DNA of 58,515 nt, taken from a virus. Lineage: Duplodnaviria > Caudoviricetes. Shown in pieces: positions 1 to 56,440 of the stretch. The position numbers and the translations under genes were made by a program. The notes beneath the pieces were generated by a model. That model worked only from the letters and a program-made list of their open reading frames with translations, searched no databases and was not told the DNA's origin. The DNA is taken from the IMG/VR virus record IMGVR_UViG_3300022208_000278, positions 1 to 58,515 of that record; one strand, given 5' to 3'. Within the stretch, counting starts at the first letter, position 1, and every line of letters starts with the position of its first letter.

Positions 1-228
1 ATGACAAAGAATGAGGCAATAACAGAACACCTAAAACACTGGGAGAAATTCCCCGTTTTCGTGTGGAAAGAAGGAAACGACCTTGTGACCGAGGTTGACG
101 GAAACATACTGCGTGCAAAGACAGTATTCCAGATGGACACGAAACTAGATGGGATAGCACCAGCCCCAAGGAATTTGTATTTTGTGGACGCGCCAGATTA
201 TGAAACAGAGTGTGCAGAACGGAACTGA
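1..228 (+). CDS. hypothetical protein at distal end of array A
   Basis: 75-aa ORF ending within the first attC-like site. Confidence 0.65.
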   Translation: MTKNEAITEHLKHWEKFPVFVWKEGNDLVTEVDGNILRAKTVFQMDTKLDGIAPAPRNLYFVDAPDYETECAERN

Positions 229-297
229 GCTAACCGGACACGCCGTAGGCGTGTCCGAGTTGAGCGAGTGGTTAGCCGACAAATTTAACAACGGAGA

Positions 298-567
298 ATG
301 AACATGCGTATTTGGAAATGGGTAATTGGTATATCCGACGAATTAACTTTGATGATGCCTATCGGAGCAAAGCTGCTTGACGTTCAAATGCAAGCAGACC
401 AATGCTACATTTGGGCGCTGTGCGATCAGAACGCCGAAAAAGAACCGCGACACTTGGCGATATATGGAACCGGGAACCCGATGCCGGATGATCCTGGTGA
501 GTACGTGGCAACCTTCCAAATGCACGGTGGGGCGTTGGTATTCCATGCGTTCGAGATTGGCGGCTAA
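298..567 (+). CDS. cassette protein (small phage protein, ...IYGTGNPMP...VATFQMHGGALVFHAFE)
   Basis: RBS acGGAGa; stop TAA inside the GGCTAAC box. Confidence 0.8.
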   Translation: MNMRIWKWVIGISDELTLMMPIGAKLLDVQMQADQCYIWALCDQNAEKEPRHLAIYGTGNPMPDDPGEYVATFQMHGGALVFHAFEIGG

Positions 568-654
568 CGCCTGAGATAACCGGAGCGACGCGGCTTTATT
601 GCGGCGCGTCCGGTTGATTGACGGGTTAGGCCCGTCTTAACTACGGAGAACAAA

Positions 655-885
655 ATGGAAACACTTGAAACACTTGATGAAATGATTGATAAGCTAAAAA
701 ATTTACGCGAATCAATTGGGAGAAATTGCAATGTATTTGTGTCTGGGTGGAACGATACCGGAATAGTTCGCCCGACGAACACGGTAGCAATATTTGTTAA
801 AAGGACAGGGCTAAAAGAAGACGGTGAGATAAGCCGCGTTTGGGAAGAATCAGATGATGGTGATATAGCGGTAATCATATCGTGA
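655..885 (+). CDS. cassette hypothetical protein
   Basis: RBS acGGAGa; fills cassette 625-899. Confidence 0.75.
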   Translation: METLETLDEMIDKLKNLRESIGRNCNVFVSGWNDTGIVRPTNTVAIFVKRTGLKEDGEISRVWEESDDGDIAVIIS

Positions 886-959
886 TTGAGGGGCATAACG
901 CAGAAATAACCGGCGGCTGAAAGCCGTCCCGCTGGATTGACGGGTTAGCGAACATAAGG

Positions 960-1121
960 ATGATTGAAATGGAAGACTTAATTGGGCCACCAGAGCAAGG
1001 CGCTTTGGTCGAGATTTACGCAAAAGGAATGCGCGTAAAAATTCGCGTGAACGATTCGGAAGATGCGGAGATTGTGAGGTTGGCATTAGAGATGGCTGAA
1101 CGTCGCAGGTATGGACGCTAA
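960..1121 (+). CDS. cassette hypothetical protein, 53 aa (MIEMEDLIGPPEQGALVEIYAKG...RRRYGR), not in ORF track
   Basis: Manual translation; AAGGA upstream of the second ATG (969); TAA in CGCTAAC box. Confidence 0.65.
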   Translation: MIEMEDLIGPPEQGALVEIYAKGMRVKIRVNDSEDAEIVRLALEMAERRRYGR

Positions 1122-1159
1122 CAATTGAATTAACGCGCCGCCGCTTTTGGCGGTCGCGG

Positions 1160-1348
1160 TTGAATGAGGGGTTCGACATACAGGAAGCGTGGAGAACTGG
1201 CGAGCGGGTGAGTCTCAATCCAGGGCCACCAGACCCGGTGAAGATGGCCGTATTGATGCGGCAGCGAGATATGGGGCGGTGGGTATTTGGCGCTATGGCC
1301 GTTGGTTTTCTGGTCATGGCGATTGCGGCGGTGATTCGTGATGTCTAA
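1160..1348 (+). CDS. cassette small membrane protein (start uncertain)
   Basis: C-terminal hydrophobic helix; TAA in GTCTAAC box. Confidence 0.55.
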   Translation: MNEGFDIQEAWRTGERVSLNPGPPDPVKMAVLMRQRDMGRWVFGAMAVGFLVMAIAAVIRDV

Positions 1349-1431
1349 CGTGGAGTTAACTCGGCTGCGCATCGCGCAGTCCGGTGGAGCGAAGCGGAAC
1401 GAAAGTTGAACGTAAAGTTAGGGGTGAAACT

Positions 1432-1701
1432 ATGGAAATAAGTACACACAAAGCGGCAGAGCTTTTAAAGCTGATGACCGGAGAACTGAGACAAGATGAA
1501 TACGGAGAAACCGCATTCATGCTTGATGATGGACGCGCATTACTACTCACAACATCGGTACATATCGGGGTGCATACGTCATCGGCTCGGGTTGTATACC
1601 ATCACGTTATGGGATATATCGCGGAGGAATTCGAGCCGCTACCAAAAGCCCCTAACGTGGAGGTAAGCCGCAACCAACAGCGGCCACAAAATGACGAATA
1701 A
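1432..1701 (+). CDS. cassette hypothetical protein; C-terminus read into next attC
   Basis: ATG 15 nt after GTTAGGG; ends PNVEVSRNQQRPQNDE, encoded by the attC. Confidence 0.7.
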   Translation: MEISTHKAAELLKLMTGELRQDEYGETAFMLDDGRALLLTTSVHIGVHTSSARVVYHHVMGYIAEEFEPLPKAPNVEVSRNQQRPQNDE

Positions 1702-1990
1702 AACTACAACACAAAGCCCGCTGTTGGTTGTCGGACTTGACCGTAAAGTTAGGGGTGATGCGCAATTTGTTGAGGCCGTGAAAAAATGGAGGCTCGACAC
1801 TGGCGGAACGGAATTGCATCTCGTGCTAAATAACGGGAAGCCGCAGGCGGCATACCCGCGCAAGGTGCAAGCGGAAATATATGCGAGTGGATTTTCAAAA
1901 AACGAAGGCGTGAAAATCATTAGCGGAACTTTCACCCCTAACGTGCAAGTTCAGCGGGACGCCGCTTTTGGCGGCTCCGCTGGAACGTAG
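1691..1990 (+). CDS. cassette hypothetical protein with attC-encoded leader and tail
   Basis: ATG lies in loop of attC 1650-1754; stop lies in attC 1936-1998. Confidence 0.65.
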   Translation: MTNKTTTQSPLLVVGLDRKVRGDAQFVEAVKKWRLDTGGTELHLVLNNGKPQAAYPRKVQAEIYASGFSKNEGVKIISGTFTPNVQVQRDAAFGGSAGT

Positions 1991-2023
1991 GGTTGTGCGT
2001 CAACTTAACAACGGAGAACGAAA

Positions 2024-2263
2024 ATGAAAAAAGAATTTGGAGAAGCGCCGCTTACATGCCCAGAATGTGGCAGCCAAGAAGTTACAGTAAGCCACCTACA
2101 AAGGTTCATGGCTAACACTGGTGATCATTACTGCCACAGTGTAAAGACACAAGATGCGGACTCAGAATCGACATGTCTTGCTTGCCAATGGATTGGAAGG
2201 CGCGACCAGTTAATGACGCACAACGTAGAGCTAACCGGCGCTGCGCGCCACGAAAAGGAGTAA
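2024..2263 (+). CDS. cassette Zn-ribbon protein (CPECGS...CLAC)
   Basis: RBS acGGAGa; two CxxC motifs. Confidence 0.75.
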   Translation: MKKEFGEAPLTCPECGSQEVTVSHLQRFMANTGDHYCHSVKTQDADSESTCLACQWIGRRDQLMTHNVELTGAARHEKE

Positions 2264-2268
2264 GAGAT

Positions 2269-2577
2269 ATGAAGATCGAGAAACCACATGACTCAGCAAC
2301 GCCTACGGGCGCAGCGTCCGCGTTGAGCGCCGGGTTAGCCGTGCGGGTTGATCCTTTATACGTTTCCGTTCGCGGAAGCGAGGGGATCACCTTCAAGGAA
2401 GGCTGGAGCACTGGGAACATGACTGCGCCGGGAGTACAGATCGACACGGTTTGGTACGCAGAGCAGAGCAGAGCATTCGGCGGGTGCATTGACAGGGCCG
2501 AAGCTACGCAAATACGCGACTGGCTGAACTCGTGCATAGCCAAATGGGATCAGGAGAAGGTGAAGGCTAACGTCTGA
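2269..2577 (+). CDS. cassette hypothetical protein with attC-encoded leader
   Basis: AAGGAG-N8-ATG inside attC 2218-2340. Confidence 0.7.
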   Translation: MKIEKPHDSATPTGAASALSAGLAVRVDPLYVSVRGSEGITFKEGWSTGNMTAPGVQIDTVWYAEQSRAFGGCIDRAEATQIRDWLNSCIAKWDQEKVKANV

Positions 2578-2642
2578 CATAAGGGGCTGGCCGTAGGCCA
2601 GTCCCTCTTGGTGGAAAAGTTAGACCACATTGGAGACAGAAG

Positions 2643-2957
2643 ATGATGATAGATATTAGATGCCAGCGAGAACCGTGGAGAGACGGGATAGAGGTTGCGG
2701 TATTTCAGAAGCGAGAATTTGGAATGATGGTTGCCGAACCGTTGACGCTTAGAGAACTGAAGGACGGAGAAAACCTCAACGAGCCAACTATGCGCCTGCG
2801 GAACGAAGAGGCGCAACAATTGATAGATGAACTCTGGCGATGCGGACTGAGGCCCAGTGAAGGAACGGGCAGCGCCGGAAGTTTGGCGGCAACCGAAAAG
2901 CACTTGGCAGACATGCAGAAAATAGCGTTGGGGCTGCTTAAAGTTCATGGGGTCTAA
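2643..2957 (+). CDS. cassette phage hypothetical protein (...AQQLIDELWRCGLRPSEGTGSAGSLAATEKHLADM)
   Basis: GGAG RBS; TAA in GTCTAAC box. Confidence 0.8.
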   Translation: MMIDIRCQREPWRDGIEVAVFQKREFGMMVAEPLTLRELKDGENLNEPTMRLRNEEAQQLIDELWRCGLRPSEGTGSAGSLAATEKHLADMQKIALGLLKVHGV

Positions 2958-3002
2958 CGACAAAATTGAGCAGCCGCCCACTAAAACACTGGAGAAAACA
3001 CG

Positions 3003-3344
3003 ATGAACGATGAGACAAAACTGAATGACGAAAACCCCGCTGATGGGCGGTCTGACTCGAATGGAGGGTTAGGCGAAGTTGATTTTTATAATTATCTTCG
3101 AGAAGAAATAACTGATTTAGATAGCGCCAAAATGTTCATGTGGAAATGGGTGAACGAAATGGATCAGGAACTCCCCAAATTTGGCTCGATAAGCTCAAGA
3201 GCGCTGTGCGCCCACGTTAGCGCGATATTGGAAGGAAAGGAACAAGACGATTCAGGGGGTGATGGATATACTCAATACCTGAATACAAAGTATGGGCCTG
3301 AACTCTACTATTCAGCGTGGGGAGGGCGGCCTAACGTGATATAG
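3003..3344 (+). CDS. cassette hypothetical protein with attC-encoded leader; stop supplied by attI-like site
   Basis: GGAG + ATG inside attC 2952-3074; ends PNVI* in AACGTGATATAG. Confidence 0.7.
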   Translation: MNDETKLNDENPADGRSDSNGGLGEVDFYNYLREEITDLDSAKMFMWKWVNEMDQELPKFGSISSRALCAHVSAILEGKEQDDSGGDGYTQYLNTKYGPELYYSAWGGRPNVI

Positions 3345-3394
3345 ACACCTTTGCAGGTGTATAACACCCTGCGAAGGCAGTTTTACACCTAAAG
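3329..3394 (-). other. attI-like recombination site A
   Basis: - strand reads ...GGTGTAAAAC...GGTGTTATACACCTGCAAAGGTGTCTATATCACG|TTAGGC; near-identical copies at 6141-6206 and 40125-40190. Confidence 0.7.
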
Positions 3395-4085: not shown

Positions 4086-4126
4086 TTATTACCATTATTA
4101 AACGCCACAGGCAGCTTGACCGTAAA

Positions 4127-4265
4127 GTTAGGGGTGAAAGTGGTGGGGATTATTAAAGCGCATCCAAGCGCAAGTGTTCCGGGAGGCATACCGGGTAGTG
4201 CAGGCCGTTCGACACGGCGGCACGGCATGTTGGATATAGTAGTCCTCACCACTTTCGCCACTAAC
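4127..4265. ncRNA. ORF-less cassette, candidate structured RNA
   Basis: 23-bp terminal inverted complement (3 mismatches); internal GCCG-TTCGACA-CGGC T-loop-like hairpin; no RBS/ATG-led ORF filling the cassette. Confidence 0.35.
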
Positions 4266-4326
4266 GTAGAGCTAACCGGCAGGCCGCTTGGATGCCGTGT
4301 TAGGCACGACCAAACAGGAGAACGAA

Positions 4327-4635
4327 ATGAAATTGCTGGACATGGTTTCCGCTCTATCAAAAGCAGGTGTTGCTACAACAGTGCGCGGTGTAGGGGAAAC
4401 ATTGATAGCCGAGTTTGAGGATGGGTTTTATAAATCAGACGGAATGGCGCACCTACGCGAAGAAAACGGGCGACTGTATCTAAACGCCAGATATGGCGAG
4501 AAGAAAGAGGTTTTAGGGATTGATGACGTTATCAAATGCTCTAAAGAATGGCACGAATTCAGCCACGATAGATTCGATGGATGGGAAACACCGCCAGCAC
4601 ATTGGGCCGCGCTGTATGAGACGTTGAGTGCCTAA
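4327..4635 (+). CDS. cassette hypothetical protein
   Basis: AGGAG RBS; TAA in GCCTAAC box. Confidence 0.8.
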   Translation: MKLLDMVSALSKAGVATTVRGVGETLIAEFEDGFYKSDGMAHLREENGRLYLNARYGEKKEVLGIDDVIKCSKEWHEFSHDRFDGWETPPAHWAALYETLSA

Positions 4636-4658
4636 CGTGGAATTAAGCGGGCGCGAAA

Positions 4659-4868
4659 ATGACCTCTGATAAAACCAGCCACGCTGAACGCGCTCCGCTT
4701 GAATGTAGGGTTATGCCTCTGCCACTTGGAACGCAAACCCAATGGGGAAAAATTGAAATGGTCGGCATCACTGGAGGCGAACGGTACTACTGGATGCTCG
4801 ACAAACATAAATGCGTGTCCATGATTCCTGCCTTCATGGTAGAACAGGGGCATAACGACAAAGCTTAG
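4659..4868 (+). CDS. cassette hypothetical protein with attC-encoded leader
   Basis: ATG within attC 4630-4716. Confidence 0.65.
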   Translation: MTSDKTSHAERAPLECRVMPLPLGTQTQWGKIEMVGITGGERYYWMLDKHKCVSMIPAFMVEQGHNDKA

Positions 4869-4938
4869 GGGCGACGCCGTAGGCGGCGTCCCACTAGAGC
4901 GGCGGGTTGTGCGCCGCCGTTCAACGGAGATAAACACG

Positions 4939-5226
4939 ATGAAGCGATACCGAACACCGAAGGCGAAACCCGGCGAACTGCTGGTGAAGTACGGGCAGGA
5001 ACATGGAGACCGTGACCTGTACTTTTGCTACGGGGCTGGCGGGGCAACAAGACGAGATTCAAATGTCGTGATGATGGCTTTCAATAGCGAACTGAAACTT
5101 GGGAATGGGAATTCACTCGTTAAAGAACTAGAGGCTCGTGGATACGACATCACAACGCTGAAATTCACGGTGCAATTGAAGGCGCACAACGTGAAGCTAA
5201 GAGACAGGCCGACCGAAAAACTTTAA
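4939..5226 (+). CDS. cassette phage hypothetical protein (...SLVKELEARGYDITTLKFTV)
   Basis: acGGAGa RBS; reads into next attC. Confidence 0.75.
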   Translation: MKRYRTPKAKPGELLVKYGQEHGDRDLYFCYGAGGATRRDSNVVMMAFNSELKLGNGNSLVKELEARGYDITTLKFTVQLKAHNVKLRDRPTEKL

Positions 5227-5240
5227 AGGAGAAATGAACC

Positions 5241-5498
5241 ATGAACACACGCAACTTTGGAAAGAAATCACTTATCGGCCTGTCCCTCTTGAGCGTAGGG
5301 TTAGTGGGTTGCGAACTTGCATCACCGTGGCAAGGTGCAGGTGCTCTTTACATTTACGATCATGGTGTTTCGCGTTGTGTAAATGTTAAAGAGGTAGCTT
5401 TCAATGCGTCTCGATCTACAGATTATATTGATCTTGATGGTATCCAATATTTGGCGCGTGAACCTGTGGCATATTACGCTGGTGAGAAATGCAAATGA
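5241..5498 (+). CDS. cassette lipoprotein; signal peptide encoded by attC
   Basis: MNTRNFGKK-SLIGLSLLSVG-LVGC lipobox; residues 1-22 lie in attC 5184-5306. Confidence 0.65.
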   Translation: MNTRNFGKKSLIGLSLLSVGLVGCELASPWQGAGALYIYDHGVSRCVNVKEVAFNASRSTDYIDLDGIQYLAREPVAYYAGEKCK

Positions 5499-5553
5499 AT
5501 ACCCCTAACGGGGAGCTAAGGGGCTGCGCGCATCACGAAACTTTGAAGGAGCG

Positions 5554-5901
5554 ATGAGCATGGAATCAGCGAACGAAACTGGAAAGAACCCCGCTGGCGC
5601 GCAGTCCGGTGGAGCCGAAGGCGGAACGAACTTGAGCGGATGGTTAGCCGCCGAGAAGCAGCAGGAAGCGGAATGGGACAATTTTTGGCGCGAGCGCGAA
5701 CTAGAAGAACGAGAGCTTTTTGAGCAGAGCTACCGCCGCCACAAACTGAACCGGCATCATGGCGGAACAGGAGAATATGAGCATCGCTACGTCGAGCATT
5801 GTTGGCATGGCTGGATGGATAGGGCATTCGTGATCTACACAGAGGCGGCTAACGTGCAAGTTCAGCGGGACGCCGCTTTTGGCGGCTCCGCTGGAACGTA
5901 G
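5554..5901 (+). CDS. cassette hypothetical protein with attC leader and tail
   Basis: AAGGAG + ATG inside attC 5503-5649; tail identical to that of 1691-1990. Confidence 0.7.
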   Translation: MSMESANETGKNPAGAQSGGAEGGTNLSGWLAAEKQQEAEWDNFWRERELEERELFEQSYRRHKLNRHHGGTGEYEHRYVEHCWHGWMDRAFVIYTEAANVQVQRDAAFGGSAGT

Positions 5902-5934
5902 GGTTGTGCGTCAATCAAACTATGGAGAATAAAA

Positions 5935-6156
5935 ATGTGCGTAATAGTCATGGTCGGAGATATTGAGTGTAGTACAAAAGCAGAACTGAGAAATGCTATC
6001 GGAATTGAACCGGAGCGCAGAAAGAAAGATTACAAAACATTTGAGGACGGAGATTGTCTTTGTCCATGCGATCTTGAGAAAACAGCAAAGCTCGCAAATA
6101 TGACTTTGAGCGGCGATTCTTGGGATGTGCAGATTTTGACGCACAACGTGATATAG
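5935..6156 (+). CDS. cassette hypothetical protein (DCLCPCD)
   Basis: GGAG RBS; ends HNVI* in attI-like site. Confidence 0.75.
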   Translation: MCVIVMVGDIECSTKAELRNAIGIEPERRKKDYKTFEDGDCLCPCDLEKTAKLANMTLSGDSWDVQILTHNVI

Positions 6157-6206
6157 GCACATTTGCAGGTGTATAACACCCAACGAAGGCAGTTTTACAC
6201 CTAAAG
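6141..6206 (-). other. attI-like recombination site B
   Basis: AACGTGATATAGGCACATTTGCAGGTGTATAACACCC...TTTTACACCTAAAG, near-identical to sites A and C. Confidence 0.7.
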
Positions 6207-44148: not shown

Positions 44149-44163
44149 AGTGCGCCCGCTCAA

Positions 44164-44376: not shown

Positions 44377-44393
44377 GGTTCAATTCTCCGTAG

Positions 44394-46684: not shown

Positions 46685-46720
46685 TTATACACCGATAAAG
46701 GGGTCTATTCTGCGTTAGGC
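46685..46720 (+). other. attI-like recombination site D (diverged)
   Basis: TTATACACC-gat-AAAGG-g-GTCTAT-tctgc-G|TTAGGC aligns without gaps to site A TTATACACC-tgc-AAAGG-t-GTCTAT-atcac-G|TTAGGC. Confidence 0.65.
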
Positions 46721-46909
46721 ACTGGTGATAATCCTCTCGATGTCGCTGGGTTTTAACTGCATTTTCCATTTCTCTTTCCACTCTTCATGCCACTTTATTA
46801 TTTTACCTGTTACGCTATTCCTTATCACAACAGAAACGCACCCGCTAATTTTGTAATGGTACAAAACACCATTTACAACTATCTCTTTCCGTCCTTTTTT
46901 GGGCAGCAT
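46715..46909 (-). CDS. cassette hypothetical protein
   Basis: RBS GGAGG comes from the attC spacer; ATG 1 nt after R box; TAA in attI R box. Confidence 0.7.
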   Translation of the reverse strand: MLPKKGRKEIVVNGVLYHYKISGCVSVVIRNSVTGKIIKWHEEWKEKWKMQLKPSDIERIITSA

Positions 46910-46924
46910 TGCCTAACCCTCCAT

Positions 46925-47188
46925 TCAACCGCGACCGCTTCGCGGCGCGTTAATTATTGCGTTGGGCGGCGTTAAGTGATTACGCAACTTAACTTTGAAC
47001 GCCTCAAATCCATTAGCAAATTTGTTATCATCGCCACCTATCGCCACGCCTAGACCGTAGAGCACATCATTTATCAGCGTTTCATCCGTGTAATTTTCAT
47101 AGAACGGTTGGTCGCTATAGGTACGCATGTAGTTTTGCAGGTATTTAACAGCTTCTTTAATCCGCTTTTGATGTTTTTTAGTTGCCAT
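46925..47188 (-). CDS. cassette hypothetical protein
   Basis: acGGAGa RBS; tail read into attC. Confidence 0.75.
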   Translation of the reverse strand: MATKKHQKRIKEAVKYLQNYMRTYSDQPFYENYTDETLINDVLYGLGVAIGGDDNKFANGFEAFKVKLRNHLTPPNAIINAPRSGRG

Positions 47189-47309
47189 AGTATTCTCCGT
47201 TGAAAAAGCCGCCCAACCCTACGTTCGAGCGCACGGGCAACGGCGGGACAGGTTCTCTAGTTTTGCTCATGGTTTCTCCTCGCGCCGTTCCCCGGCGCTC
47301 AACTTTGCG

Positions 47310-48329
47310 TTATGCCCCATACATCACCATTTGCGCGCTGGCACTTTCTACCCGCTGCCGCGCCATTTCAAAGTTTTTCGGGCATTTCTCAACCCCGATA
47401 AATCGCCTCCCTGTTTCATGGCAGGCATGGCCTAAACTACCCCCACCCATGAACGGATCAAAAACCAAATCCCCCGCCCTTGTGCTGGAGTAAAGGATGT
47501 GCCGCAAAAGTGCCTGCGGCTTCTCGCATGGGTGCTTCCCCGCATAAGCCATTACAGGCTCAAAGTCCCAAACATCACCCCATTGGTCTTTTGCAGTCAC
47601 ATTGAACGGCCTGCGCAGCTCTTCGTACTCGCGGCGCAGCTCTTCGTACTCGCGGCGCAGTTCTTCATACTCGCGCGTCAAAAACCCTGATCCGAGTGTG
47701 TGTTGCATTGACTCATAATCAGCAGCAGAGATTAGGTTCTTTCCAAGCTCCCAGTTAAATATGTTGGCGTTCGCGCTGTCTTCGTTTTTGTAGCCCACAA
47801 GTTTCTTCGCTACATCGCGGCGGCTGATTCCTGCGCGTTCGCGCTCAAGCTGGATATAGCGGCCTAGTGGCGCGTACACCTCTTTATGCAAAGCCTTCGA
47901 TGCGTCACCGTATTGATCGCCCCGCTGCTCCGCAAATATAACCCGCTCAGTCACCGCAATCCAAGAGCGCAGGGCTTCTTTCTCGGCCTTCTGCGCCCAT
48001 CCAACAACATCGCGTCCTTTACCGCCCTTGCGCCACACGATTGAACTCAGCACGTTAAAACGCTTCCCGATCTCGCATTCAACGCGCGCCGCCATTTGTG
48101 GCGAGGCGAAAAAGTACAGGCTCCCGTTCGGCTTGAGGATGCGCTGGAACTGTTCGCAAAGCTTGCCAACCCACTCAATAAAATGGTTCGCGTCATCCCA
48201 TTGGTTATCCCAATCTTCGCCCTTCACACGGAAGTATGGGGGGTCGGTTATGATTGCACTTATGCTATGAGATTCCATATCCTTCATTACAGCCATACAA
48301 TCCGCATTGTAGAGTGCGACACTATTCAT
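47310..48329 (-). CDS. DNA amino-methyltransferase (N6A/N4C, beta class) with HTH-like insertion
   Basis: DPPY motif; HPCEKP; VFDPFMGGGS SAM-binding motif. Confidence 0.9.
   Translation of the reverse strand: MNSVALYNADCMAVMKDMESHSISAIITDPPYFRVKGEDWDNQWDDANHFIEWVGKLCEQFQRILKPNGSLYFFASPQMAARVECEIGKRFNVLSSIVWRKGGKGRDVVGWAQKAEKEALRSWIAVTERVIFAEQRGDQYGDASKALHKEVYAPLGRYIQLERERAGISRRDVAKKLVGYKNEDSANANIFNWELGKNLISAADYESMQHTLGSGFLTREYEELRREYEELRREYEELRRPFNVTAKDQWGDVWDFEPVMAYAGKHPCEKPQALLRHILYSSTRAGDLVFDPFMGGGSLGHACHETGRRFIGVEKCPKNFEMARQRVESASAQMVMYGA
47613..47675 (-). repeat. 3x21-bp coding repeat (REYEELR)
   Basis: Direct inspection. Confidence 0.9.
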
Positions 48330-51023: not shown

Positions 51024-51060
51024 GATAGGCACCTTTGCCGGGGCCTATATCATGTTAGGC
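51024..51060 (+). other. attI-like recombination site E (core only)
   Basis: GCCTATATCATGTT identical to core of site C. Confidence 0.65.
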
Positions 51061-51061
51061 C

Positions 51062-51625
51062 TCATGATTGCTTCTCCCGTGCTTTCAGCATTTCATCGGC
51101 TTGCCGGTAGGCAAATTGAGCGCGCAATTCGTATGTGTCAAAGTCGGTGTCTTCGCAAGCGACGATTGACTGCATCGCCTTTGCCGCGAAGTAATCGCGC
51201 AAGCTCATCCCCTCGCTTGGCGCTCCGCCACCGCCACTGAACGTATATGAATGCCCACTGTTAGGGAACGCCGGGCCGCCGTTGTTGGTTTCGCTCATGT
51301 TCATTTCCTTTCCGGGCCTGAGGCCCAACCCTGCATTCGAGCGCGACGGCCCAAAAGCGGGCCGCGCCTCAATTTGAATGTTAGAGCGCTCTTTGAGTCT
51401 GCGCACCCAATACGCCACGGCTTTGTTCCACATAGCCACGTCCCGCTCGATCCCTCTGTCGTCGCCAGTATCCTCCGCTGCCTCGCATGCCTTCACGCAC
51501 GCCTCACGCTCTGCATCAACGGCGCGGCGCGCAACTTCCTTGGCATAGTCGCCGTACAGGCCATCCGACAGCCCGCCCATTTGCCATTCTCGCTCAACGT
51601 CGTCACATATCTTTTGCAAGTCCAT
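51062..51625 (-). CDS. two cassette ORFs fused in frame through an attC; distal part (start 51304) is the GMSLRDYFAAKAMQ phage family
   Basis: ORF crosses attC 51323-51386 without a stop; internal AAGGA + ATG. Confidence 0.7.
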   Translation of the reverse strand: MDLQKICDDVEREWQMGGLSDGLYGDYAKEVARRAVDAEREACVKACEAAEDTGDDRGIERDVAMWNKAVAYWVRRLKERSNIQIEARPAFGPSRSNAGLGLRPGKEMNMSETNNGGPAFPNSGHSYTFSGGGGAPSEGMSLRDYFAAKAMQSIVACEDTDFDTYELRAQFAYRQADEMLKAREKQS

Positions 51626-51691
51626 ATCGTTCTCCGTAGTTACCAGCGCTCTAACCCATCATTCCACCGGACAGCTTCGCTGCCGGTGAAT

Positions 51692-52054
51692 TCAGGCGTT
51701 AGCCGCCGCAAATGGGATCAGCTTCAAATCGTAGCCATCCACATGCCCTGATTCCCAATCGTGGGTCTCGTTGCACACAATTACCTCGTAAATCCCATCC
51801 CCGCACTCGTCGAGGTTGAGTATGCTATTCACAGCATCCGCCGCGCCGATTGCACCAGCATCTTCCTCAAGCACATTAAATCCAGTGCATTTCCTGCGCA
51901 AAAATGTGATGCTTTTCTTTGTATGCAGCCCGCGCCTGTCTGCCCATATTGTTGTGGTAATTTTAACAACGCATACGTTTTTTGGAGCGTCGGCGGCTAA
52001 CCCTGCGGTCAAGTCCGACAAACAAAAGCGGGGTTGAGTTTGTGTGTTATTCAT
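51692..52054 (-). CDS. cassette hypothetical protein with attC-encoded leader
   Basis: ATG in attC 51995-52098. Confidence 0.7.
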   Translation of the reverse strand: MNNTQTQPRFCLSDLTAGLAADAPKNVCVVKITTTIWADRRGLHTKKSITFLRRKCTGFNVLEEDAGAIGAADAVNSILNLDECGDGIYEVIVCNETHDWESGHVDGYDLKLIPFAAANA

Positions 52055-52313
52055 AGTTTTGTAGCCGCTTTTGTTTGCGGCTTACCTCCATGTTAGCCGC
52101 CTGTATGCTTTCCACTCTCTTAATTGCGCTGTCCAAGTTGACTATAGGGGTTGACCACTCATCGCAACCGTATGTTGATTTCCCACTAAACCCAGTGTGC
52201 ATTAGCATTTCGCGGATGTCGCGCAATCTCCAAAGAACGTCGGCTAACCCGTCATTCAAGCGGGGATGCCCCTCTGCGCGGCTTTTATCATTCAGTTCAG
52301 TTTCATCATTCAT
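52047..52313 (-). CDS. cassette hypothetical protein with attC leader and tail
   Basis: Leader MNDETELND resembles that of 3003-3344. Confidence 0.65.
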   Translation of the reverse strand: MNDETELNDKSRAEGHPRLNDGLADVLWRLRDIREMLMHTGFSGKSTYGCDEWSTPIVNLDSAIKRVESIQAANMEVSRKQKRLQNYE

Positions 52314-52320
52314 TTCTTTG

Positions 52321-52581
52321 TTATCCTTTCTCTATGGGGCAGCCCCTTACTTCGGAGTTGGTGGTCTTATTGCACTCCGGGCATGGAAGCCCTCTCTTTG
52401 CCGCTGTCACGCTCGGCAGTGAAATCCATCCTGATTCGTGCCCGCACTTGGCGCACACCATTGCCACAACCTGTTCGCCATCTTCGTGTTCGCCACAATT
52501 GCCATTCGCGCAGTCAACAACGTGCATCATCCATTCGCGCTGCTTTCTCGGCTTCTCGAACATTTCCAGTGTGCGTGCCAT
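52321..52581 (-). CDS. Zn-ribbon protein at distal junction of array E
   Basis: CAKCGHESGW...CPECN; GGAG RBS; tail read into attC. Confidence 0.7.
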   Translation of the reverse strand: MARTLEMFEKPRKQREWMMHVVDCANGNCGEHEDGEQVVAMVCAKCGHESGWISLPSVTAAKRGLPCPECNKTTNSEVRGCPIEKG

Positions 52582-53669: not shown

Positions 53670-53865
53670 TTTTCTGTCATGTTTTTATAGGGTGATTTAA
53701 TCATAATCGCCAATAAGTCTGGCATTTGGCAGGGACTCGACACCCTGAATACACAAGCCCTAGTGTTCCAGATGCCAGTCTTATTGGTGATCCTAAAAAG
53801 GAGGAATGCCGTCGCGCTAAAGCGCGCCCCTCTTGAATGATGGGTTAGAGAACAGGAGAAACAAC

Positions 53866-54057
53866 GTGGCGAAAAAAGAGATAAAGATCATTGAGGGAGA
53901 TGTAAGGCACGATGTGTTTGGTAGTTGGAGCGACTGCTCTCCCGGCCTATACATTGACACCGATATGGTGGAGTCCATTTTCAATTCATACAAAGGCAGG
54001 AGGGTTAGAGTGACAATCGAAGTAATAGAACCTGTTCTGGACGATGGTGATGAGTGA
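53866..54057 (+). CDS. cassette hypothetical protein
   Basis: AGGAG + GTG start. Confidence 0.65.
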   Translation: MAKKEIKIIEGDVRHDVFGSWSDCSPGLYIDTDMVESIFNSYKGRRVRVTIEVIEPVLDDGDE

Positions 54058-54159
54058 TGTTCTCTAACGCAAAGGTAACAGGCTCGCCTTCGGCGAGTCC
54101 AGCGGAGTGAAACGGAGCGGTGTTGACCGTTAGGTTATGCTGTTTTATTGGAGACGAAG

Positions 54160-54624
54160 ATGAAAGCTACTGTATGGACTTCTTACGGAAGAAACAACGA
54201 AAAGCCCAAGTGTATTTTTAATGGAGAAATAAAGTCAGTGCCAAGAGATGGCGAGTTAATCGTAGCCCGTGATGGATTTTGCTCGGAGCGAGTAATCGAG
54301 GTTACGCACGATCTTGTAACCGGAGAGGTCGAAATAAAAATTGCAGGCGGAGACCCAGATAGCGAATACGGAGATTGCAGAGTTAGCAGCCTACTCTTAA
54401 CGAAGCGCGGTACTTTGAAAGGAAACATCATGCAACCTCACCAGCAACGTGTAGTAGATGAAAAAACAGAACTCGACGTGAAGGCCCACGCACTTAGCCA
54501 ATTTATTGGTCATAGCCCGATATTTGAAACGCTCGATGCAGCGGAACAAGAACGGTTGAAGGAGCAGAACGACGTTATGTGGCAATACTCTGAGATTCTC
54601 GGAGCGAGAATTGCTGCATTTTAA
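54160..54624 (+). CDS. fusion of two cassette ORFs; distal part (ATG 54430, MQPHQQRVVDEKTEL...) is crAss001_48-like
   Basis: attC remnant at 54372-54388 inside the ORF; internal AAGGA + ATG. Confidence 0.7.
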   Translation: MKATVWTSYGRNNEKPKCIFNGEIKSVPRDGELIVARDGFCSERVIEVTHDLVTGEVEIKIAGGDPDSEYGDCRVSSLLLTKRGTLKGNIMQPHQQRVVDEKTELDVKAHALSQFIGHSPIFETLDAAEQERLKEQNDVMWQYSEILGARIAAF

Positions 54625-54769
54625 ATAGTGAAGCTTCCTGTCAGCTCGAAGGCGGCTAACAAGTAGTGAATGGGCTGCGGCGCTGACACTTTGAACAAGA
54701 AAGAAACACTTATTACCGCAGTCCCGCTTGCACGTAGGGTTGGGCGGCTTTTTCAACGGAGATATAGCT

Positions 54770-55006
54770 ATGAACACAATACCAGAAAAACATCTTGAGT
54801 TTTGCAGGGCGGTTGCCGCGCTTGCTGCTGACGCAGGAATAAACCAAGCATCTCTAACCTACCACCCCGGAATTCATGACGAATGGAGAGATGAGATACG
54901 GATGCAATGGGAAAGCGGCAGGCACGGCGAAGATTCTAGGCGAGTGTACATAACCAGCAATGTTCAAGTTAGAACAGAACTCAAGCCGCCCAACATTTCA
55001 AATTGA
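54770..55006 (+). CDS. cassette hypothetical protein
   Basis: acGGAGa RBS. Confidence 0.7.
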   Translation: MNTIPEKHLEFCRAVAALAADAGINQASLTYHPGIHDEWRDEIRMQWESGRHGEDSRRVYITSNVQVRTELKPPNISN

Positions 55007-55071
55007 GGCGCGGCGCGCTGTTGCGCCGTCGCTCTCGAATGCAGAGTTAGGCTCTGCGAAAGGAGATTGAA

Positions 55072-55227
55072 ATGGCATACCAATACAAAGAGGCAATGAA
55101 ACGGCATAGACGCACCGCATTTCAAAGGCGCGATGTTAAATCTGAAATTACAGTTTTCAGGATAGTTGAGCAAAAAGGATGCTGTGGGAGTTTTATTCCA
55201 AGGTACAAAACGAAGCCTAACGCCTGA
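55072..55227 (+). CDS. cassette small basic protein, 51 aa (MAYQYKEAMKRHRR...KPNA), not in ORF track
   Basis: AAGGAG RBS; manual translation. Confidence 0.6.
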   Translation: MAYQYKEAMKRHRRTAFQRRDVKSEITVFRIVEQKGCCGSFIPRYKTKPNA

Positions 55228-55297
55228 ATTTTGGGGCTGCCGAAGGCAGTCCCGCAACAATGACGGGTTATGCCCCGCCTTAACTACGGAGATTGCC

Positions 55298-55498
55298 ATG
55301 ATTGAAACTGCACCAGAAGGAATGACTAAAGAGCTTTGGCTGAAAAGATGCTCTGCACGATTGAGAGCAAAGATACCGGACATGGATATTTCCGAGAGCG
55401 ATGGAATTGCGGAGGCGTGCTTTGAAAATCTGGACAACGACCTCACAGAACACCCTGAGGACGCGGCAGACGAGGAACTGAGCTGCTGGTCTGAATGA
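55298..55498 (+). CDS. cassette acidic protein (...PEDAADEELSCW)
   Basis: acGGAGa RBS. Confidence 0.7.
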   Translation: MIETAPEGMTKELWLKRCSARLRAKIPDMDISESDGIAEACFENLDNDLTEHPEDAADEELSCWSE

Positions 55499-55592
55499 AG
55501 GGGCATAACGTAAAGGTAAGGGGCTGACGCGCTTTTGCGGCGGTCCCGCTTCACCGCCGGGTTGGGCGGCTTTTTACTACGGAGCAAAAAAC

Positions 55593-55856
55593 ATGGCAAA
55601 GAAATATCCTGCAATAGGTTGTAAAAAAGCGCCACGGAATGCTGGTGGATTGCCATGCATTATTTGCGGAGTGCCGACAACTGGAAAAGTTGACATAGAA
55701 GTAAGCTGGTTTCGTGGCGACGACAAACAGGTGCGTGTCTGCAAAACACACCAGACGAAACACGATACCGAAATACTGGCGGCATACGAGGCGGCTAACG
55801 CTGACATGAGGGGCTGCGCCACCGCCGAGCCGAACAACGAAGCGAGGAAGATATGA
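55593..55856 (+). CDS. cassette Zn-binding protein (CIICG...SWFRGDD...VCKTH)
   Basis: acGGAG RBS; tail read into attC. Confidence 0.7.
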   Translation: MAKKYPAIGCKKAPRNAGGLPCIICGVPTTGKVDIEVSWFRGDDKQVRVCKTHQTKHDTEILAAYEAANADMRGCATAEPNNEARKI

Positions 55857-56152
55857 CAACACAACAAACAAACAACGAAGCTCTGGCGCAGTCCCGCGCC
55901 AAAGGCGCAAACTCGATGGATGGGTTAGGGGCGGCAATGGAATGCAGGTCAATAGAAACGGCCCCGAGAGTCGGGACGCCTATCATCCTTCTCTACTTCG
56001 ATGGCGGGAGAGTATGTTGGGTTCGGGACGGGAAATTCGTTCCGCCTATCGGGTGGTATTCGATCAACGGCACTGGCGGGCTACATCCTACCCATTGGAT
56101 GCCGATGCCAGAAGCCCCTAACGACCATGCTCAGCCGACCGTAACCGCCTGA
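55853..56152 (+). CDS. cassette DUF551-like protein with attC-encoded leader
   Basis: SIETAP...PTHWMPMPEAP motif. Confidence 0.75.
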   Translation: MTTQQTNNEALAQSRAKGANSMDGLGAAMECRSIETAPRVGTPIILLYFDGGRVCWVRDGKFVPPIGWYSINGTGGLHPTHWMPMPEAPNDHAQPTVTA

Positions 56153-56214
56153 GAAGAACTTTAAATTTACCACAAAAGCCGGATGCGGTTACGGGTCGGC
56201 TGGAGCTATTTGTT

Positions 56215-56424
56215 ATGAGCGACACAGCAAAAACAGATAAAGAGGCTATGTGGGCCGAAAGCGGTACTGGCGAAGAATTCCAGTGCATCAGCATTGACGA
56301 AGCGAGGGAGATGGAAATAGTCTTACGCGAAGCCAGACAGATACTTGATGACTGGTGCGATGAATGCGGACATGTGGAATTGGAGATAATGCGAGACAAG
56401 ATTGATAAATATCTTGACTCATAA
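56215..56424 (+). CDS. cassette acidic protein
   Basis: ATG within R box GTTATGA, GGAG from attC L box; TAA in R box. Confidence 0.7.
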   Translation: MSDTAKTDKEAMWAESGTGEEFQCISIDEAREMEIVLREARQILDDWCDECGHVELEIMRDKIDKYLDS

Positions 56425-56440
56425 CATGATATAGGCACAC
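56419..56440 (-). other. attI-like recombination site F (core only)
   Basis: AACATGATATAGGCAC identical to core of site C. Confidence 0.65.

What the first reader, a model, noticed from the sequence alone, without database searches (positions are those of the whole stretch)
214..56440. Phage accessory genome built from six integron-like cassette arrays, with no integrase
Seen: 42 intact attC-like hairpins (plus 4 partial ones) separate ~46 single-gene cassettes in six arrays at 0.2-3.4, 4.1-6.2, 40.1-44.4, 46.7-47.3, 51.0-52.4 and 53.8-56.4 kb, interleaved with core phage genes. The sites have canonical attC grammar: R'' RYYYAAC, 5-nt spacer, 8-nt L'' with extra base, variable stem-loop, 7-nt L', GTTRRRY. 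Example at 40396: GCACAAC-CCTAC-GTTCGAGC...CCTCAAC-TACTT-GTTGTGC. Cassette genes are typical phage accessory families (DUF551-like, Zn ribbons, GMSLRDYFAAKAM), not resistance genes. No IntI or other tyrosine recombinase is recognisable. Inference: a distributed phage gene-capture and shuffling system that borrows a host IntI in trans or uses a recombinase outside the window.
Basis: partly seen in the sequence, partly recalled or inferred. Interest (0 to 1): 0.97.

Follow-up and report, generated by a model that had tools for sequence, protein, structure and literature searches.

The report
Phage genome packed with inverted integron cassettes
About a quarter of this temperate phage genome is made of small genes separated by genuine integron recombination hairpins (attC sites) that sit the opposite way round to those in bacterial integrons, which suggests that a group of phages builds its accessory genes from its own pool of integron cassettes.

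Summary
The window is an incomplete lambdoid-type prophage with no integrase. It carries about 43 attC hairpins, 2 half-sites and 6 array ends, in six arrays (~14 kb).

A covariance model (R1) built only from 18 window hairpins gave these results:
- 33 window sites at E<1, all inside the arrays and all on the gene strand.
- No hits in 1.05 Mb of unrelated loci.
- 3 of the 4 known attC sites of a classical class 1 integron.
- 133 sites in 37 other viral contigs.

Two of those contigs, both phage-like, carry a true integron integrase (TIGR02249, ~475 bits) beside such arrays.

The sites meet the published attC criteria: AAC/GTT R box, 5-nt spacers, a bulged G in the L box, a bulged T about 6 bp further in, and a variable loop.

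New here: the genes lie on the attC bottom strand, so they are inverted relative to classical cassettes. The attC sits upstream of its gene and often holds the start codon. The same holds in the related phages. Chromosomal arrays of a Propionivibrio genome with the same attC family are canonical.

Five near-complete related phages have no tyrosine recombinase. Recombination by an IntI supplied in trans is therefore inferred, not shown.

The parts
214..3348 (+). Array 1: 10 attC sites and an array end. The record starts inside this array.
214..277 (+). attC (weak R' box)
   Evidence: R1 27.8 bits
562..631 (+). attC; stop TAA of the upstream ORF lies in the R' box
   Evidence: R1 54.3 bits
893..950 (+). 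attC
   Evidence: R1 49.7 bits
1116..1177 (+). attC
   Evidence: R1 61.1 bits
1343..1423 (+). attC
   Evidence: R1 23.3 bits
1650..1754 (+). attC with a long loop that holds ATG 1691
   Evidence: R1 12.9 bits
1936..1998 (+). attC, identical to 5847-5909
   Evidence: R1 54.9 bits
2218..2340 (+). attC with a long loop holding RBS and ATG 2269. About 79% identical copies occur in L232 and L233.
2565..2625 (+). attC
   Evidence: R1 56.3 bits
2952..3074 (+). attC with a long loop holding ATG 3003
3329..3348 (+). Array 1 end: R' box followed by the motif AAC-GTGATATAGACAC. A ~70-nt element shared with ends 2 and 3 follows.
4114..6160 (+). Array 2: a 3' half-site, 6 attC sites and an array end
4114..4133 (+). 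Array 2 start: 3' half-site only (L'', spacer, R'')
4259..4305 (+). Short, degenerate attC lacking the 3' L arm
   Evidence: R1 15.5 bits
4630..4716 (+). attC
   Evidence: R1 44.3 bits
4850..4912 (+). attC
   Evidence: R1 63.7 bits
5184..5305 (+). attC with a long loop holding ATG 5241. The 3' arm encodes a lipoprotein-type signal sequence ending in a lipobox-like LVGC (my reading of the sequence, not tested).
5503..5649 (+). attC with a long loop holding ATG 5554/5560
5847..5909 (+). attC, identical to 1936-1998
   Evidence: R1 54.7 bits
6139..6160 (+). Array 2 end: R' box followed by AAC-GTGATATAGGCAC
40171..44424 (-). Array 3: 14 sites and an array end, between the NinB region and the terminase genes
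44311..44424 (-). Array 3 start: hybrid site whose 5' and 3' arms do not pair. The loop holds ATG 44376.
   Evidence: by eye
44086..44176 (-). attC
   Evidence: R1 48.6 bits
43808..43930 (-). attC with a long loop holding ATG 43879
43483..43605 (-). attC with a long loop holding ATG 43555; 85% identical to a site in L166
43201..43268 (-). attC
   Evidence: R1 49.6 bits
42743..42798 (-). attC with three bulges (T, G, G) on the 3' arm
   Evidence: R1 52.5 bits
42385..42508 (-). attC with a long loop; R' box GCATAAC at 42502-42508
   Evidence: by eye; R1 8.1 bits, partial
42119..42202 (-). attC
   Evidence: R1 33.9 bits
41881..41938 (-). attC
   Evidence: R1 60.6 bits
41584..41657 (-). attC
   Evidence: R1 19.5 bits
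41297..41409 (-). attC with a long loop holding ATG 41350
   Evidence: R1 19.2 bits at 41285-41370
41079..41142 (-). attC
   Evidence: R1 69.7 bits
40666..40729 (-). attC
   Evidence: R1 71.8 bits
   Evidence: R1 58.1 bits
40171..40192 (-). Array 3 end: R' box followed by AAC-ATGATATAGGCAC
46700..47315 (-). Array 4: 2 attC sites and an array end, downstream of the N6/N4 methylase gene
47211..47315 (-). attC. The methylase stop TAA lies in its R' box. The loop holds a short leader ORF that ends overlapping the next start codon.
   Evidence: R1 16.3 bits
46911..46967 (-). attC
   Evidence: R1 62.7 bits
46700..46720 (-). Array 4 end: R' box GCCTAAC followed by a degenerate end motif (GCAGAATAGACCCC)
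   Evidence: by eye
51041..52356 (-). Array 5: 4 attC sites and an array end
52242..52356 (-). attC with a long loop holding ATG 52313
   Evidence: R1 18.7 bits
51995..52098 (-). attC with a long loop holding ATG 52054
   Evidence: R1 15.8 bits
51649..51704 (-). attC
   Evidence: R1 53.7 bits
51323..51386 (-). attC that is open in the frame of ORF 51062-51625, so a read-through fusion is possible
   Evidence: R1 70.8 bits
51041..51062 (-). Array 5 end: R' box followed by AAC-ATGATATAGGCCC
53826..56438 (+). Array 6: a 3' half-site, 7 attC sites and an array end
53826..53850 (+). Array 6 start: 3' half-site only
54062..54140 (+). attC
   Evidence: R1 23.6 bits
54654..54745 (+). attC
   Evidence: R1 41.6 bits
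54988..55052 (+). attC, nearly identical to the site at G021 8170-8233, which lies one cassette away from an intI gene
   Evidence: R1 66.6 bits
55215..55273 (+). attC
   Evidence: R1 64.5 bits
55503..55567 (+). attC
   Evidence: R1 63.5 bits
55793..55930 (+). attC with a long branched loop holding ATG 55853
56116..56218 (+). attC with a long loop
56417..56438 (+). Array 6 end: R' box followed by AAC-ATGATATAGGCAC

Best explanation
The six arrays are clusters of genuine integron attC sites without an integrase (CALINs), carried by a temperate phage. They come from the attC family that goes with class-1-like integron integrases of Betaproteobacteria.

Shown:
- Each unit is an attC followed by one small gene.
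- The gene is on the attC bottom strand. In gene orientation the order is RYYYAA|C, spacer, L', loop, L'' with bulged G and T, spacer, GTTRRRY, then RBS and ORF.
- The published crossover point lies between A and C of the AAC triplet. A cassette therefore starts with its own attC and ends at its own stop codon, which is often the TAA inside the next R' box.
- In about a third of the sites the RBS and start codon sit in the hairpin loop, and the 3' arm is translated.
- Arrays are transcribed as parts of phage operons, away from the position a Pc promoter would hold.

Inferred:
- Cassettes are excised, inserted and reshuffled by an integron integrase acting on the folded bottom strand.
- The integrase is supplied in trans by the host chromosome or by a co-resident phage-borne integron, or it is encoded in the missing ~23% of this prophage.
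- A likely moment is the SOS response. SOS derepresses many intI genes and induces prophages, and phage replication provides single-stranded DNA.
- The phage cassettes form a pool of their own, because their orientation would leave them unexpressed from the Pc promoter of a bacterial integron.
For: Structure:
- Covariation and invariance in the 18 seed sites.
- In 29 aligned sites: AAC and GTT in 29 of 29, a 3' spacer of 5 nt in 29 of 29, the L-box bulge is G in 27 of 29, the far bulge is T in 16 of 29.
- These are the features given by Nivina et al. 2016 (PMC5027507, passages read): AAC on the 5' arm of the bottom strand, extrahelical bases on the opposite arm (G, an optional middle base, T, with a 6-bp stem between first and last), spacers of 5-6 nt, length 57-141.

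Reciprocal control:
- R1 hits 3 of the 4 cassette attC sites of a class 1 integron at 53.9, 50.5 and 39.4 bits.
- All three hits are on the intI1-coding strand, while the resistance genes are on the other strand.

Link to IntI:
- In G005 and G021, arrays of R1 sites lie just upstream of intI genes that score 474.7 and 477.3 bits against TIGR02249 (cut-off 265). Sites and intI are on the same strand.
- Both contigs are phage-like.
- The G005 IntI is 57.9% identical to IntI1.

Polarity: test for an SD, a start codon and an ORF of >=35 aa right after R'' on the R1 strand, against the mirror test on the other strand.
- Window: 24 of 27 against 0 of 27.
- Relatives: 71 of 121 against 8 of 121.
- Class 1 control: 0 of 3 against 2 of 3.

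Spread:
- 133 R1 hits in 37 viral contigs.
- Phage contigs of a Propionivibrio MAG show inverted arrays, while its IntI-linked and chromosomal arrays are canonical.

Cassette-wise mosaicism:
- One cassette is 89% identical in protein to one in L175. The homology stops at the R boxes on both sides.
- Of 136 cassette ORFs only 15 pairs are homologous. All 7 flanks that could be judged are unrelated.
Against: - No integrase is in the window.
- 0 of 5 related viral records rated >=90% complete has any tyrosine recombinase. Most carriers therefore cannot recombine the sites by themselves.
- No excised circle or clean deletion variant was seen. In the only run found, all joints are attC-to-attC with short sides of 21-50 letters, at 90% likeness, and may come from other genomes.
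- In the one well-aligned case the hairpin body upstream of the shared gene differs. Only the last 12 nt (spacer and R'') are shared. A crossover at AA|C alone does not predict this.
- Identical attC copies (1936-1998 and 5847-5909) sit next to unrelated genes.
- Two to three array starts are half-sites, which simple insertion does not predict.
- The official attC model of IntegronFinder could not be run.
Confidence: 0.7

Rival explanations
1. The hairpins descend from attC sites but now work only in gene expression. On the mRNA they would act as stabilisers, processing sites, attenuators or translation-initiation platforms. They would no longer be recombined in these phages.
For: - All sites are on the transcribed sense strand.
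- RBS and start codons sit in the loop or right after the hairpin.
- Stop codons are offered in two frames by the R' box and spacer: TAA at offset +3 in 11 sites, TGA or TAG at +10 in 8 sites, out of 49 sites and ends examined.
- Complete relatives lack any tyrosine recombinase (0 of 5).
Against: - An RNA role does not explain why AAC/GTT stays invariant, why the bulged G and T keep the 6-bp spacing, or why the spacers stay at exactly 5 nt.
- It also does not explain why the same sites lie beside intI and attI in phage contigs.
- Cassette content is almost entirely non-overlapping between phages, which points to turnover.
Confidence: 0.13
2. The conserved attC sequences serve as short homology patches for general or phage-encoded homologous recombination (YqaJ-type exonuclease, SSB). 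Genes would be swapped between phages as modules, as proposed for the promoter-stem-loop (PeSL) cassettes of T4-type phages, without any integrase.
For: - The homology of the shared cassette stops in the R'' box on one side and in the R' box on the other, leaving different hairpin bodies.
- Identical attC copies sit next to unrelated genes.
- The phage encodes a YqaJ-like exonuclease and an SSB.
- Near-identical attC sequences occur in different phages.
Against: - Most attC pairs share only about 7-12 nt of exact identity at the boxes.
- This reading does not explain the structural constraints specific to IntI substrates.
- It does not explain the intI genes next to such arrays.
- It may act alongside IntI rather than instead of it.
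Confidence: 0.13
3. The arrays are passive cargo. A prophage picked up pieces of a host chromosomal integron by imprecise excision or illegitimate recombination, as described for Vibrio anguillarum prophages.
For: Qi et al. 2023 (PMC9892861; abstract, section 3.4 and passages read) describe phage-borne fragments of chromosomal integrons. Propionivibrio genomes have chromosomal arrays with the same attC family.
Against: - There are six separate arrays, each co-oriented with the local phage operon.
- Their polarity is opposite to that of the chromosomal arrays.
- 8 of the 30 cassette ORFs scanned hit phage protein families.
- The same architecture is found in 37 viral contigs, including genomes with terminal repeats.
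Confidence: 0.03

Closest known systems
Clusters of attC sites lacking an integrase (CALINs) and complete integrons in phage genomes (Qi et al. 2023, PMC9892861)
   Same: attC sites in phage genomes, usually without intI. Five of six tested phage attC sites recombined with attI1 under IntI1 (section 3.4).
   Different: - That survey found 3 complete integrons, 1 In0 and 17 CALINs (at least 2 attC each) in 10,705 phage genomes.
- Here one phage has about 43 sites in six arrays, and at least 37 other viral contigs share the family.
- In the passages I read I found no report that cassette genes lie on the bottom strand.
- I could not see their supplementary tables, so the largest CALIN they found is unknown to me.
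Class 1 and related chromosomal integrons of Betaproteobacteria
   Same: Same attC structure, and similar enough in sequence that R1 finds class 1 attC sites. The phage-borne IntI of G005 is 57.9% identical to IntI1 and 57% to an Aquabacterium olei integron integrase. The attC bottom strand is on the intI-coding strand, with the array upstream of intI.
   Different: Classical cassettes carry the gene on the top strand, with attC downstream of the gene, and are expressed from Pc (Nivina 2016). Here the gene is on the bottom strand, attC is upstream of the gene, and transcription runs towards the attI end. The window has no intI and no matching attI.
Sedentary chromosomal integrons such as the Vibrio superintegron
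   Same: Long arrays of mostly unknown small genes separated by attC sites that resemble each other within a lineage. Three extrahelical bases occur, as in VCR2.
   Different: A chromosomal integron is a single array next to intI in a chromosome. Here there are six short arrays spread over a phage genome, with inverted cassettes.
PeSL (promoter-early stem-loop) cassettes of T4-type phages
   Same: Intergenic stem-loops flank small accessory genes of phages and are thought to promote modular shuffling.
   Different: PeSLs are promoter-plus-terminator elements thought to act through homologous recombination. They have no attC grammar and no link to an integrase.

Membership tests
Integron attC recombination site | R box: a conserved 5'-AAC-3' on one arm paired with GTT on the other (RYYYAAC / GTTRRRY) | tested here: met
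   AAC and GTT are present in 29 of 29 aligned sites and invariant in the 18 seeds. The outer four box positions fit the consensus less well, with 5-8 of 18 unpaired.
Integron attC recombination site | Unpaired central spacer of 5-6 nt on each arm | tested here: met
   The 3' spacer is 5 nt in 29 of 29 sites. The 5' side measures 5-6 letters in 25 of 29 (that count includes one extra column). Criterion taken from PMC5027507.
Integron attC recombination site | Extrahelical bases on the arm opposite the AAC of the recombined strand: a G in the L box, a T further in, a 6-bp stem between them, and an optional middle base | tested here: met
   The L-box bulge is G in 27 of 29 sites, the far bulge is T in 16 of 29 and the middle bulge is G in 16 of 29. 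Sites with only two bulges are shifted by one column in the alignment, so the T count is a lower bound.
Integron attC recombination site | Variable terminal structure; total length about 57-141 nt | tested here: met
   Lengths are 56-92 nt for the 29 aligned sites and up to 147 nt for the long-loop sites.
Integron attC recombination site | Scored by an attC covariance model | tested here: inconclusive
   The IntegronFinder and HattCI models are not available here, and Rfam holds no attC family. The reciprocal test was positive: R1, built from the window, finds 3 of 4 known class 1 attC sites and nothing else at E<0.1 in that 17-kb locus.
Integron attC recombination site | Recombined by an integron integrase | not testable with these tools
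   Only association is shown: the same site family lies next to intI in G005, G021, G038 and G039.
Complete integron | An intI gene next to attI and the cassette array | tested here: not met
   No PF00589 or TIGR02249 match in six frames of the window at E<=10. The record is rated 77% complete and is cut at gene boundaries.
CALIN (cluster of attC sites lacking an integrase) | Two or more attC sites close together with no intI nearby (definition as used in PMC9892861) | tested here: met
   Six clusters of 2 to 14 sites and no intI.
Classical integron gene cassette | The gene lies on the attC top strand, with attC downstream of the gene, so that insertion at attI places it behind Pc | tested here: not met
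   Genes are on the R1 (bottom) strand: 24 of 27 against 0 of 27 in the window. The class 1 control gives the opposite result.

The most novel reading that the evidence does not exclude
A lineage of temperate phages, probably of Betaproteobacteria such as Propionivibrio, runs its own integron cassette economy of reversed polarity.
- Accessory genes are packaged as 'attC-first' cassettes on the attC bottom strand.
- The attC supplies the ribosome-binding site, the start codon and sometimes the N-terminal peptide. The next attC supplies the stop codons.
- Several arrays per genome are read from phage promoters.
- Cassettes are exchanged by integron integrases that some of the phages carry themselves and the others borrow from host or co-resident elements, most likely during the SOS response, when prophage induction and intI derepression coincide.
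- The reversed polarity keeps this pool functionally separate from the bacterial cassette pool.
Probability: 0.5. Interest if true: 0.9.

Novelty: new variant of a known kind. Interest (0 to 1): 0.85.

Why it matters
Integrons are regarded as bacterial devices, and the few phage cases in print are small and rare. If this reading holds, three things follow.
- An integron-type cassette system would be a main builder of the accessory genome in a whole group of phages, accounting for about 24% of this one.
- It would show a second, mirror-image way of using attC sites, in which expression comes from the element's own operons rather than from Pc.
- It would show a direct channel through which phages and bacterial integrons share recombination machinery.

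It also gives concrete substrates for testing how attC polarity, transcription and phage replication affect hairpin folding. It further suggests that surveys which expect classical cassette orientation, or a single array next to intI, will miss or misread such elements.

Tried and rejected
1. Simple regex and pairing scans for the attC grammar were not discriminating. One search gave 33 candidates against about 21 in shuffled sequence. I dropped them in favour of the covariance model.

2. Rfam has no attC family. Its only matches were the tRNA and a chance snoRNA hit.

3. The search for close relatives of the phage failed.
   - No megablast hit for 1-25000 in the phage collection.
   - Portal protein: nothing in genome contigs. 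In viral contigs there were 39 distant loci (<=51% identity) with no R1 site.
   - The 23-nt piece of the array-end element gave no hit in viral contigs.
   - The last 38 nt of the window found two metagenome contigs that share only the SSB gene end.
   - Direct synteny comparison with a sister phage was therefore not possible.

4. I considered the array-end motif AACRTGATATAGGCAC (5 copies against 0.11 expected) as an attI-like site. This is not supported.
   - Its hits in other collections are single and carry no R1 site nearby.
   - The three Propionivibrio hits lie inside what I read as a phaR-like gene, judged from its N-terminal sequence and not tested.
   - It differs from the attI regions next to the two phage intI genes, which read AAC|TTAAATTC..CGACA.
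   - Its role is open. It may be a degenerate 5' half of an attC or part of a terminator-promoter element.

5. The longest-ORF test for gene strand (29 against 19 of 48 intervals) is unreliable in this G+C-rich DNA. It miscalled the Dam-like gene of L215. I replaced it with the SD-plus-start test.

6. Read evidence. Only one run was found, probably the source sample, and it is kept as contigs.
   - Contigs break at attC sites, and attC bins carry extra depth (up to 170 against about 33).
   - Six attC-to-attC joints have short sides and were found at 90% likeness.
   - This gives no verdict on excision.

7. Two other integrase-bearing records have no R1 sites: Virus Rctr41k (IntI-like gene, 47% identity) and the Aquabacterium olei plasmid integron. 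They say nothing about the polarity question.

8. PHROGs scan of cassette ORFs: 8 of 30 hit a family and one is named (protease). The functions remain unknown.

No structure prediction, protein-library search or complex prediction was run, because none bears on the question.

10. Literature. Searches found only Qi et al. 2023 on integron parts in phages. I found no paper describing bottom-strand (inverted) cassette arrays in phages.

Full report
CONTEXT

The window is a whole viral record of 58,515 bases. It is classed as a provirus and rated 77% complete. It starts at the ATG of a small gene and ends at the stop codon of an SSB gene, so it was cut at gene boundaries.

It is a lambdoid-type temperate phage:
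- NinB, NinG and an N6/N4 DNA methylase.
- DnaB helicase and a DUF1376 replication protein.
- A YqaJ-like exonuclease and SSB.
- Large terminase, an SU10-type portal and a capsid protein.
- One ORF of 3,221 codons.
- tRNA-Ser (anticodon TGA) at 3999-4085.

No tyrosine recombinase is detectable in six frames, neither the general family PF00589 nor the integron integrase family TIGR02249.

THE OBSERVATION

Between the core modules lie six runs of small genes. Each gene is separated from the next by a hairpin with a fixed grammar.

Structure counts on 18 short copies aligned in gene orientation (A2):
- The proposed pairing is kept in 86.2% of cells, against 70.7% in shuffles (0 of 500 shuffles reach this).
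- Sliding the partner column drops pairing to 34-44%.
- 9 of 12 pairs of the inner helix carry compensatory changes.
- The AAC and GTT triplets never vary.

Results with the covariance model R1 built from these 18 copies:
- 33 matches at E<1 in the window with filters off. All are inside the six runs and all are on the strand of the genes.
- The opposite strand of the same places scores about 8-11 bits, against 50-70.
- No match at E<=0.1 in 1.05 Mb of unrelated loci fetched for other reasons.

Ten further copies have loops of 103-147 nt. The model penalises these, and I placed them by eye.

The total is about 43 sites, 2 half-sites at array starts and 6 array ends, covering about 14 kb.

WHY THESE ARE attC SITES

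Nivina et al. 2016 (PMC5027507, passages read) define the recombined bottom strand as follows:
- 5'-RYYYAAC on the 5' arm, with the crossover between A and C.
- Extrahelical bases on the opposite arm: a G in the L box, a T further in with a 6-bp stem between them, and sometimes a third base in the middle.
- Unpaired spacers of 5-6 nt.
- A variable terminal structure, and a total length of 57-141 nt.

The window's sites fit each point:
- AAC and GTT in 29 of 29 aligned sites.
- A 3' spacer of 5 nt in 29 of 29.
- The L-box bulge is G in 27 of 29.
- The far bulge is T in at least 16 of 29.
- A middle bulge in 16 of 29.

Two independent tests go beyond resemblance.

First, R1 knows only the phage hairpins, yet it finds known attC sites in a classical class 1 integron on a Klebsiella plasmid.
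- It hits the attC sites of aac(6')-Ib-cr (53.9 bits), blaOXA-1 (50.5) and catB3 (39.4).
- It misses only arr-3 (8.1 bits, partial).
- Nothing else in that 17-kb locus scores at E<0.1.

Second, a pattern taken from the 3' arm found 37 viral contigs, which hold 133 R1 matches at E<=0.01.
- In two of them (G005, G021) the arrays end just upstream of a gene scoring 474.7 and 477.3 bits against the integron integrase family (cut-off 265).
- G005 is a piece of a P2-like prophage. It carries baseplate J, tail protein I, an Mtd-Avd-reverse transcriptase set and a large serine recombinase.
- G021 carries a P22-type antirepressor domain and a primase.
- The G005 integrase is 57.9% identical to IntI1.
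- One window site (54988-55052) is nearly identical to the site that lies one cassette away from the G021 integrase.

POLARITY: THE NEW POINT

- In the class 1 control, the R1 matches lie on the intI1-coding strand and the resistance genes on the other strand. R1 therefore models the bottom strand, as its bulges also show.
- In the window the genes are on the R1 strand.
- I counted how often a Shine-Dalgarno motif, a start codon and an ORF of at least 35 codons begin within 65 nt after R'' on the R1 strand, and ran the mirror test on the other strand. The window gave 24 of 27 against 0 of 27. The relatives gave 71 of 121 against 8 of 121. The class 1 control gave 0 of 3 against 2 of 3.
- For the relatives I used 126 of the 133 rows. 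I left out five L162 rows that duplicate L159, one cut row and one partial row. The script dropped five more for short flanks.
- In G005 the Dam-like methylase cassette, confirmed by Pfam, and the other cassette genes point towards attI and intI.

The cassettes of this phage family are therefore inverted relative to the classical arrangement.

One Propionivibrio MAG (G038) shows both arrangements side by side.
- Three short contigs with phage genes (VapE-like, GH108 lysin, tail proteins) have inverted arrays: 10 of 16, 7 of 14 and 6 of 13, against 0, 1 and 1.
- The array next to its intI (496.7 bits) and an array on a 318-kb contig have their ORFs on the strand opposite to the R1 matches. For these two arrays the strand rests on ORF lists only.

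ANATOMY THAT FOLLOWS FROM THE POLARITY

- With the crossover at AA|C, a cassette begins with its own attC and ends at the end of its gene.
- The upstream gene's stop codon is often the TAA of the R' box (11 cases), or a TGA/TAG ten bases on in the spacer (8 cases), out of 49 sites and ends examined.
- In about a third of the sites the loop holds the RBS and start codon, and the gene reads through the 3' arm. Examples are 2269, 3003, 5241, 41350, 43555, 52313 and 55853.
- These long-loop sites are conserved as units between phages at 79-86% nucleotide identity, while the downstream gene bodies differ.
- Two to three arrays start with a 3' half-site or a hybrid site.
- All six arrays end with an R' box followed by non-hairpin sequence. 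Five ends share AAC-RTGATATAGRC.C (5 matches against 0.11 expected). The sixth is a degenerate copy. Three ends share a further ~70 nt.
- This end motif is not the attI seen next to the two phage integrases, and it was not found at array ends elsewhere. Its role is open.

EVIDENCE FOR MOBILITY (INDIRECT)

- Among 136 cassette ORFs from the window, the 37 contigs and the three Propionivibrio phage contigs, only 15 pairs are homologous. All 7 flanks that could be judged are unrelated.
- One window cassette (41942-42133) is 89% identical in protein to one in L175. The DNA homology starts at the spacer and R'' box and ends at the next R' box, with unrelated hairpin bodies and neighbours on both sides.
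- A window cassette (4939-5226) is 38% identical to the attI-proximal cassette of G005.
- The window's methylase gene is 72-75% identical in DNA to a gene that sits as a cassette in a Propionivibrio phage contig.
- In the only sequencing run found, other contigs share the window's attC sequences next to different DNA. The joints seen are too short to count.

MECHANISM

What is shown is the nature, polarity and distribution of the sites. What is inferred is that integron integrases move these cassettes.

0 of 5 related records rated >=90% complete has a tyrosine recombinase. Two phage-like contigs and three of four bacterial genomes tested do carry intI. The enzyme must therefore usually act in trans.

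The review PMC8946536 (passages read) states three relevant points:
- Many intI genes are repressed by LexA.
- attC folding is favoured by single-stranded DNA produced during replication, conjugation, transformation and phage infection.
- Folding is also favoured when the bottom strand is on the lagging-strand template.

Prophage induction by the SOS response would bring integrase expression and phage single-stranded DNA together. This step is my inference.

Why the polarity is reversed is unknown. Three possibilities are:
- Exposure of the bottom strand as the non-template strand during transcription.
- The use of attC as an expression module.
- Insulation from the bacterial cassette pool.

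The main rivals are a purely RNA-level role, and integrase-free exchange through the conserved boxes by homologous recombination. The breakpoint pattern keeps the second alive, possibly alongside IntI.

COMPARISON WITH WHAT IS KNOWN, AND NOVELTY

Integron parts in phages are in print. Qi et al. 2023 found 3 complete integrons, 1 In0 and 17 CALINs in 10,705 phage genomes, and showed that 5 of 6 tested phage attC sites recombine with attI1.

I found nothing on three points in four literature searches:
- The scale seen here: about 43 sites in six arrays in one phage.
- A recurrent phage-associated attC family.
- The reversed site-gene polarity.

I could not see the supplements of that paper. I file the finding as a new variant of a known kind: genuine attC/CALIN arrays, but not classical cassettes.

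LIMITS

- The official attC models could not be run.
- The host of this phage is not established. The Propionivibrio link rests on one genome that holds similar phage arrays. The end-motif matches in that genus are chance hits inside a gene I read as phaR-like.
- No recombination event was observed.
- The long-loop sites and some boundaries rest on my reading of the sequence.

Noticed in passing
window 11937-21602 (-): A single ORF of 3,221 codons lies in the virion module, between tail-region genes and the head genes. It was not characterised.
   Followed up: no
window 8978-11299 (-): In the 773-codon ORF, the ORF list shows 40-codon antisense-frame ORFs every 147 nt (9066, 9213, 9360, 9507, 9654, 9801). 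This points to a 147-bp (49-residue) tandem repeat in a probable tail fibre or decoration protein.
   Followed up: no
window 3999-4085 (+): tRNA-Ser (anticodon TGA) lies between arrays 1 and 2, just after a 177-codon ORF with CxxC pairs (3456-3989). That ORF is preceded by a sigma-70-like TTGACA...CATAAT promoter at about 3407-3440.
   Followed up: partly
window 51062-51625 (-): The attC at 51323-51386 is open in the frame of the flanking genes. The two genes could therefore be read as one 187-codon fusion, with the hairpin translated as a linker.
   Followed up: no
window 47211-47315 (-): The loop of this attC holds an RBS and a short ORF of about 32 codons. The ORF runs through the 3' arm and ends overlapping the start of the next gene (ATGGCAACTAA), an arrangement that suggests translational coupling.
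   Followed up: no
window 3349-3420, 6161-6230, 40100-40170 (-): A ~70-nt element is shared by the ends of arrays 1, 2 and 3. It has two small hairpins, a T run and, in two copies, a TTGACA box. It looks like a terminator-promoter junction between operons.
   Followed up: partly
L157/L215 4135-5290: In the phage-borne integron contig G005, a diversity-generating retroelement set (Mtd, bAvd, reverse-transcriptase-like ORF) directly precedes the array. The reverse-transcriptase ORF stops after 147 codons at the first attC, as if truncated by it.
   Followed up: partly
L231-L235 (Propionivibrio MAG G038): One bacterial genome bin holds 46 R1 matches. Arrays on phage-like contigs have inverted cassettes. 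The arrays next to intI and on a 318-kb contig have canonical orientation.
   Followed up: partly
L232 9289-9654; L233 3419-8820: A 123-nt attC subtype occurs in many copies per phage contig at about 79% identity. Its loop encodes an RBS and a conserved N-terminal peptide (as in window 2218-2340), and it is joined to different downstream genes.
   Followed up: no
L217 (Virus Rctr41k, KX853513) 68-5678: A published virus record has ten small same-strand ORFs directly upstream of an integrase annotated xerD. That integrase is 47% identical to the phage-borne IntI of G005. No R1-type attC was found there.
   Followed up: partly
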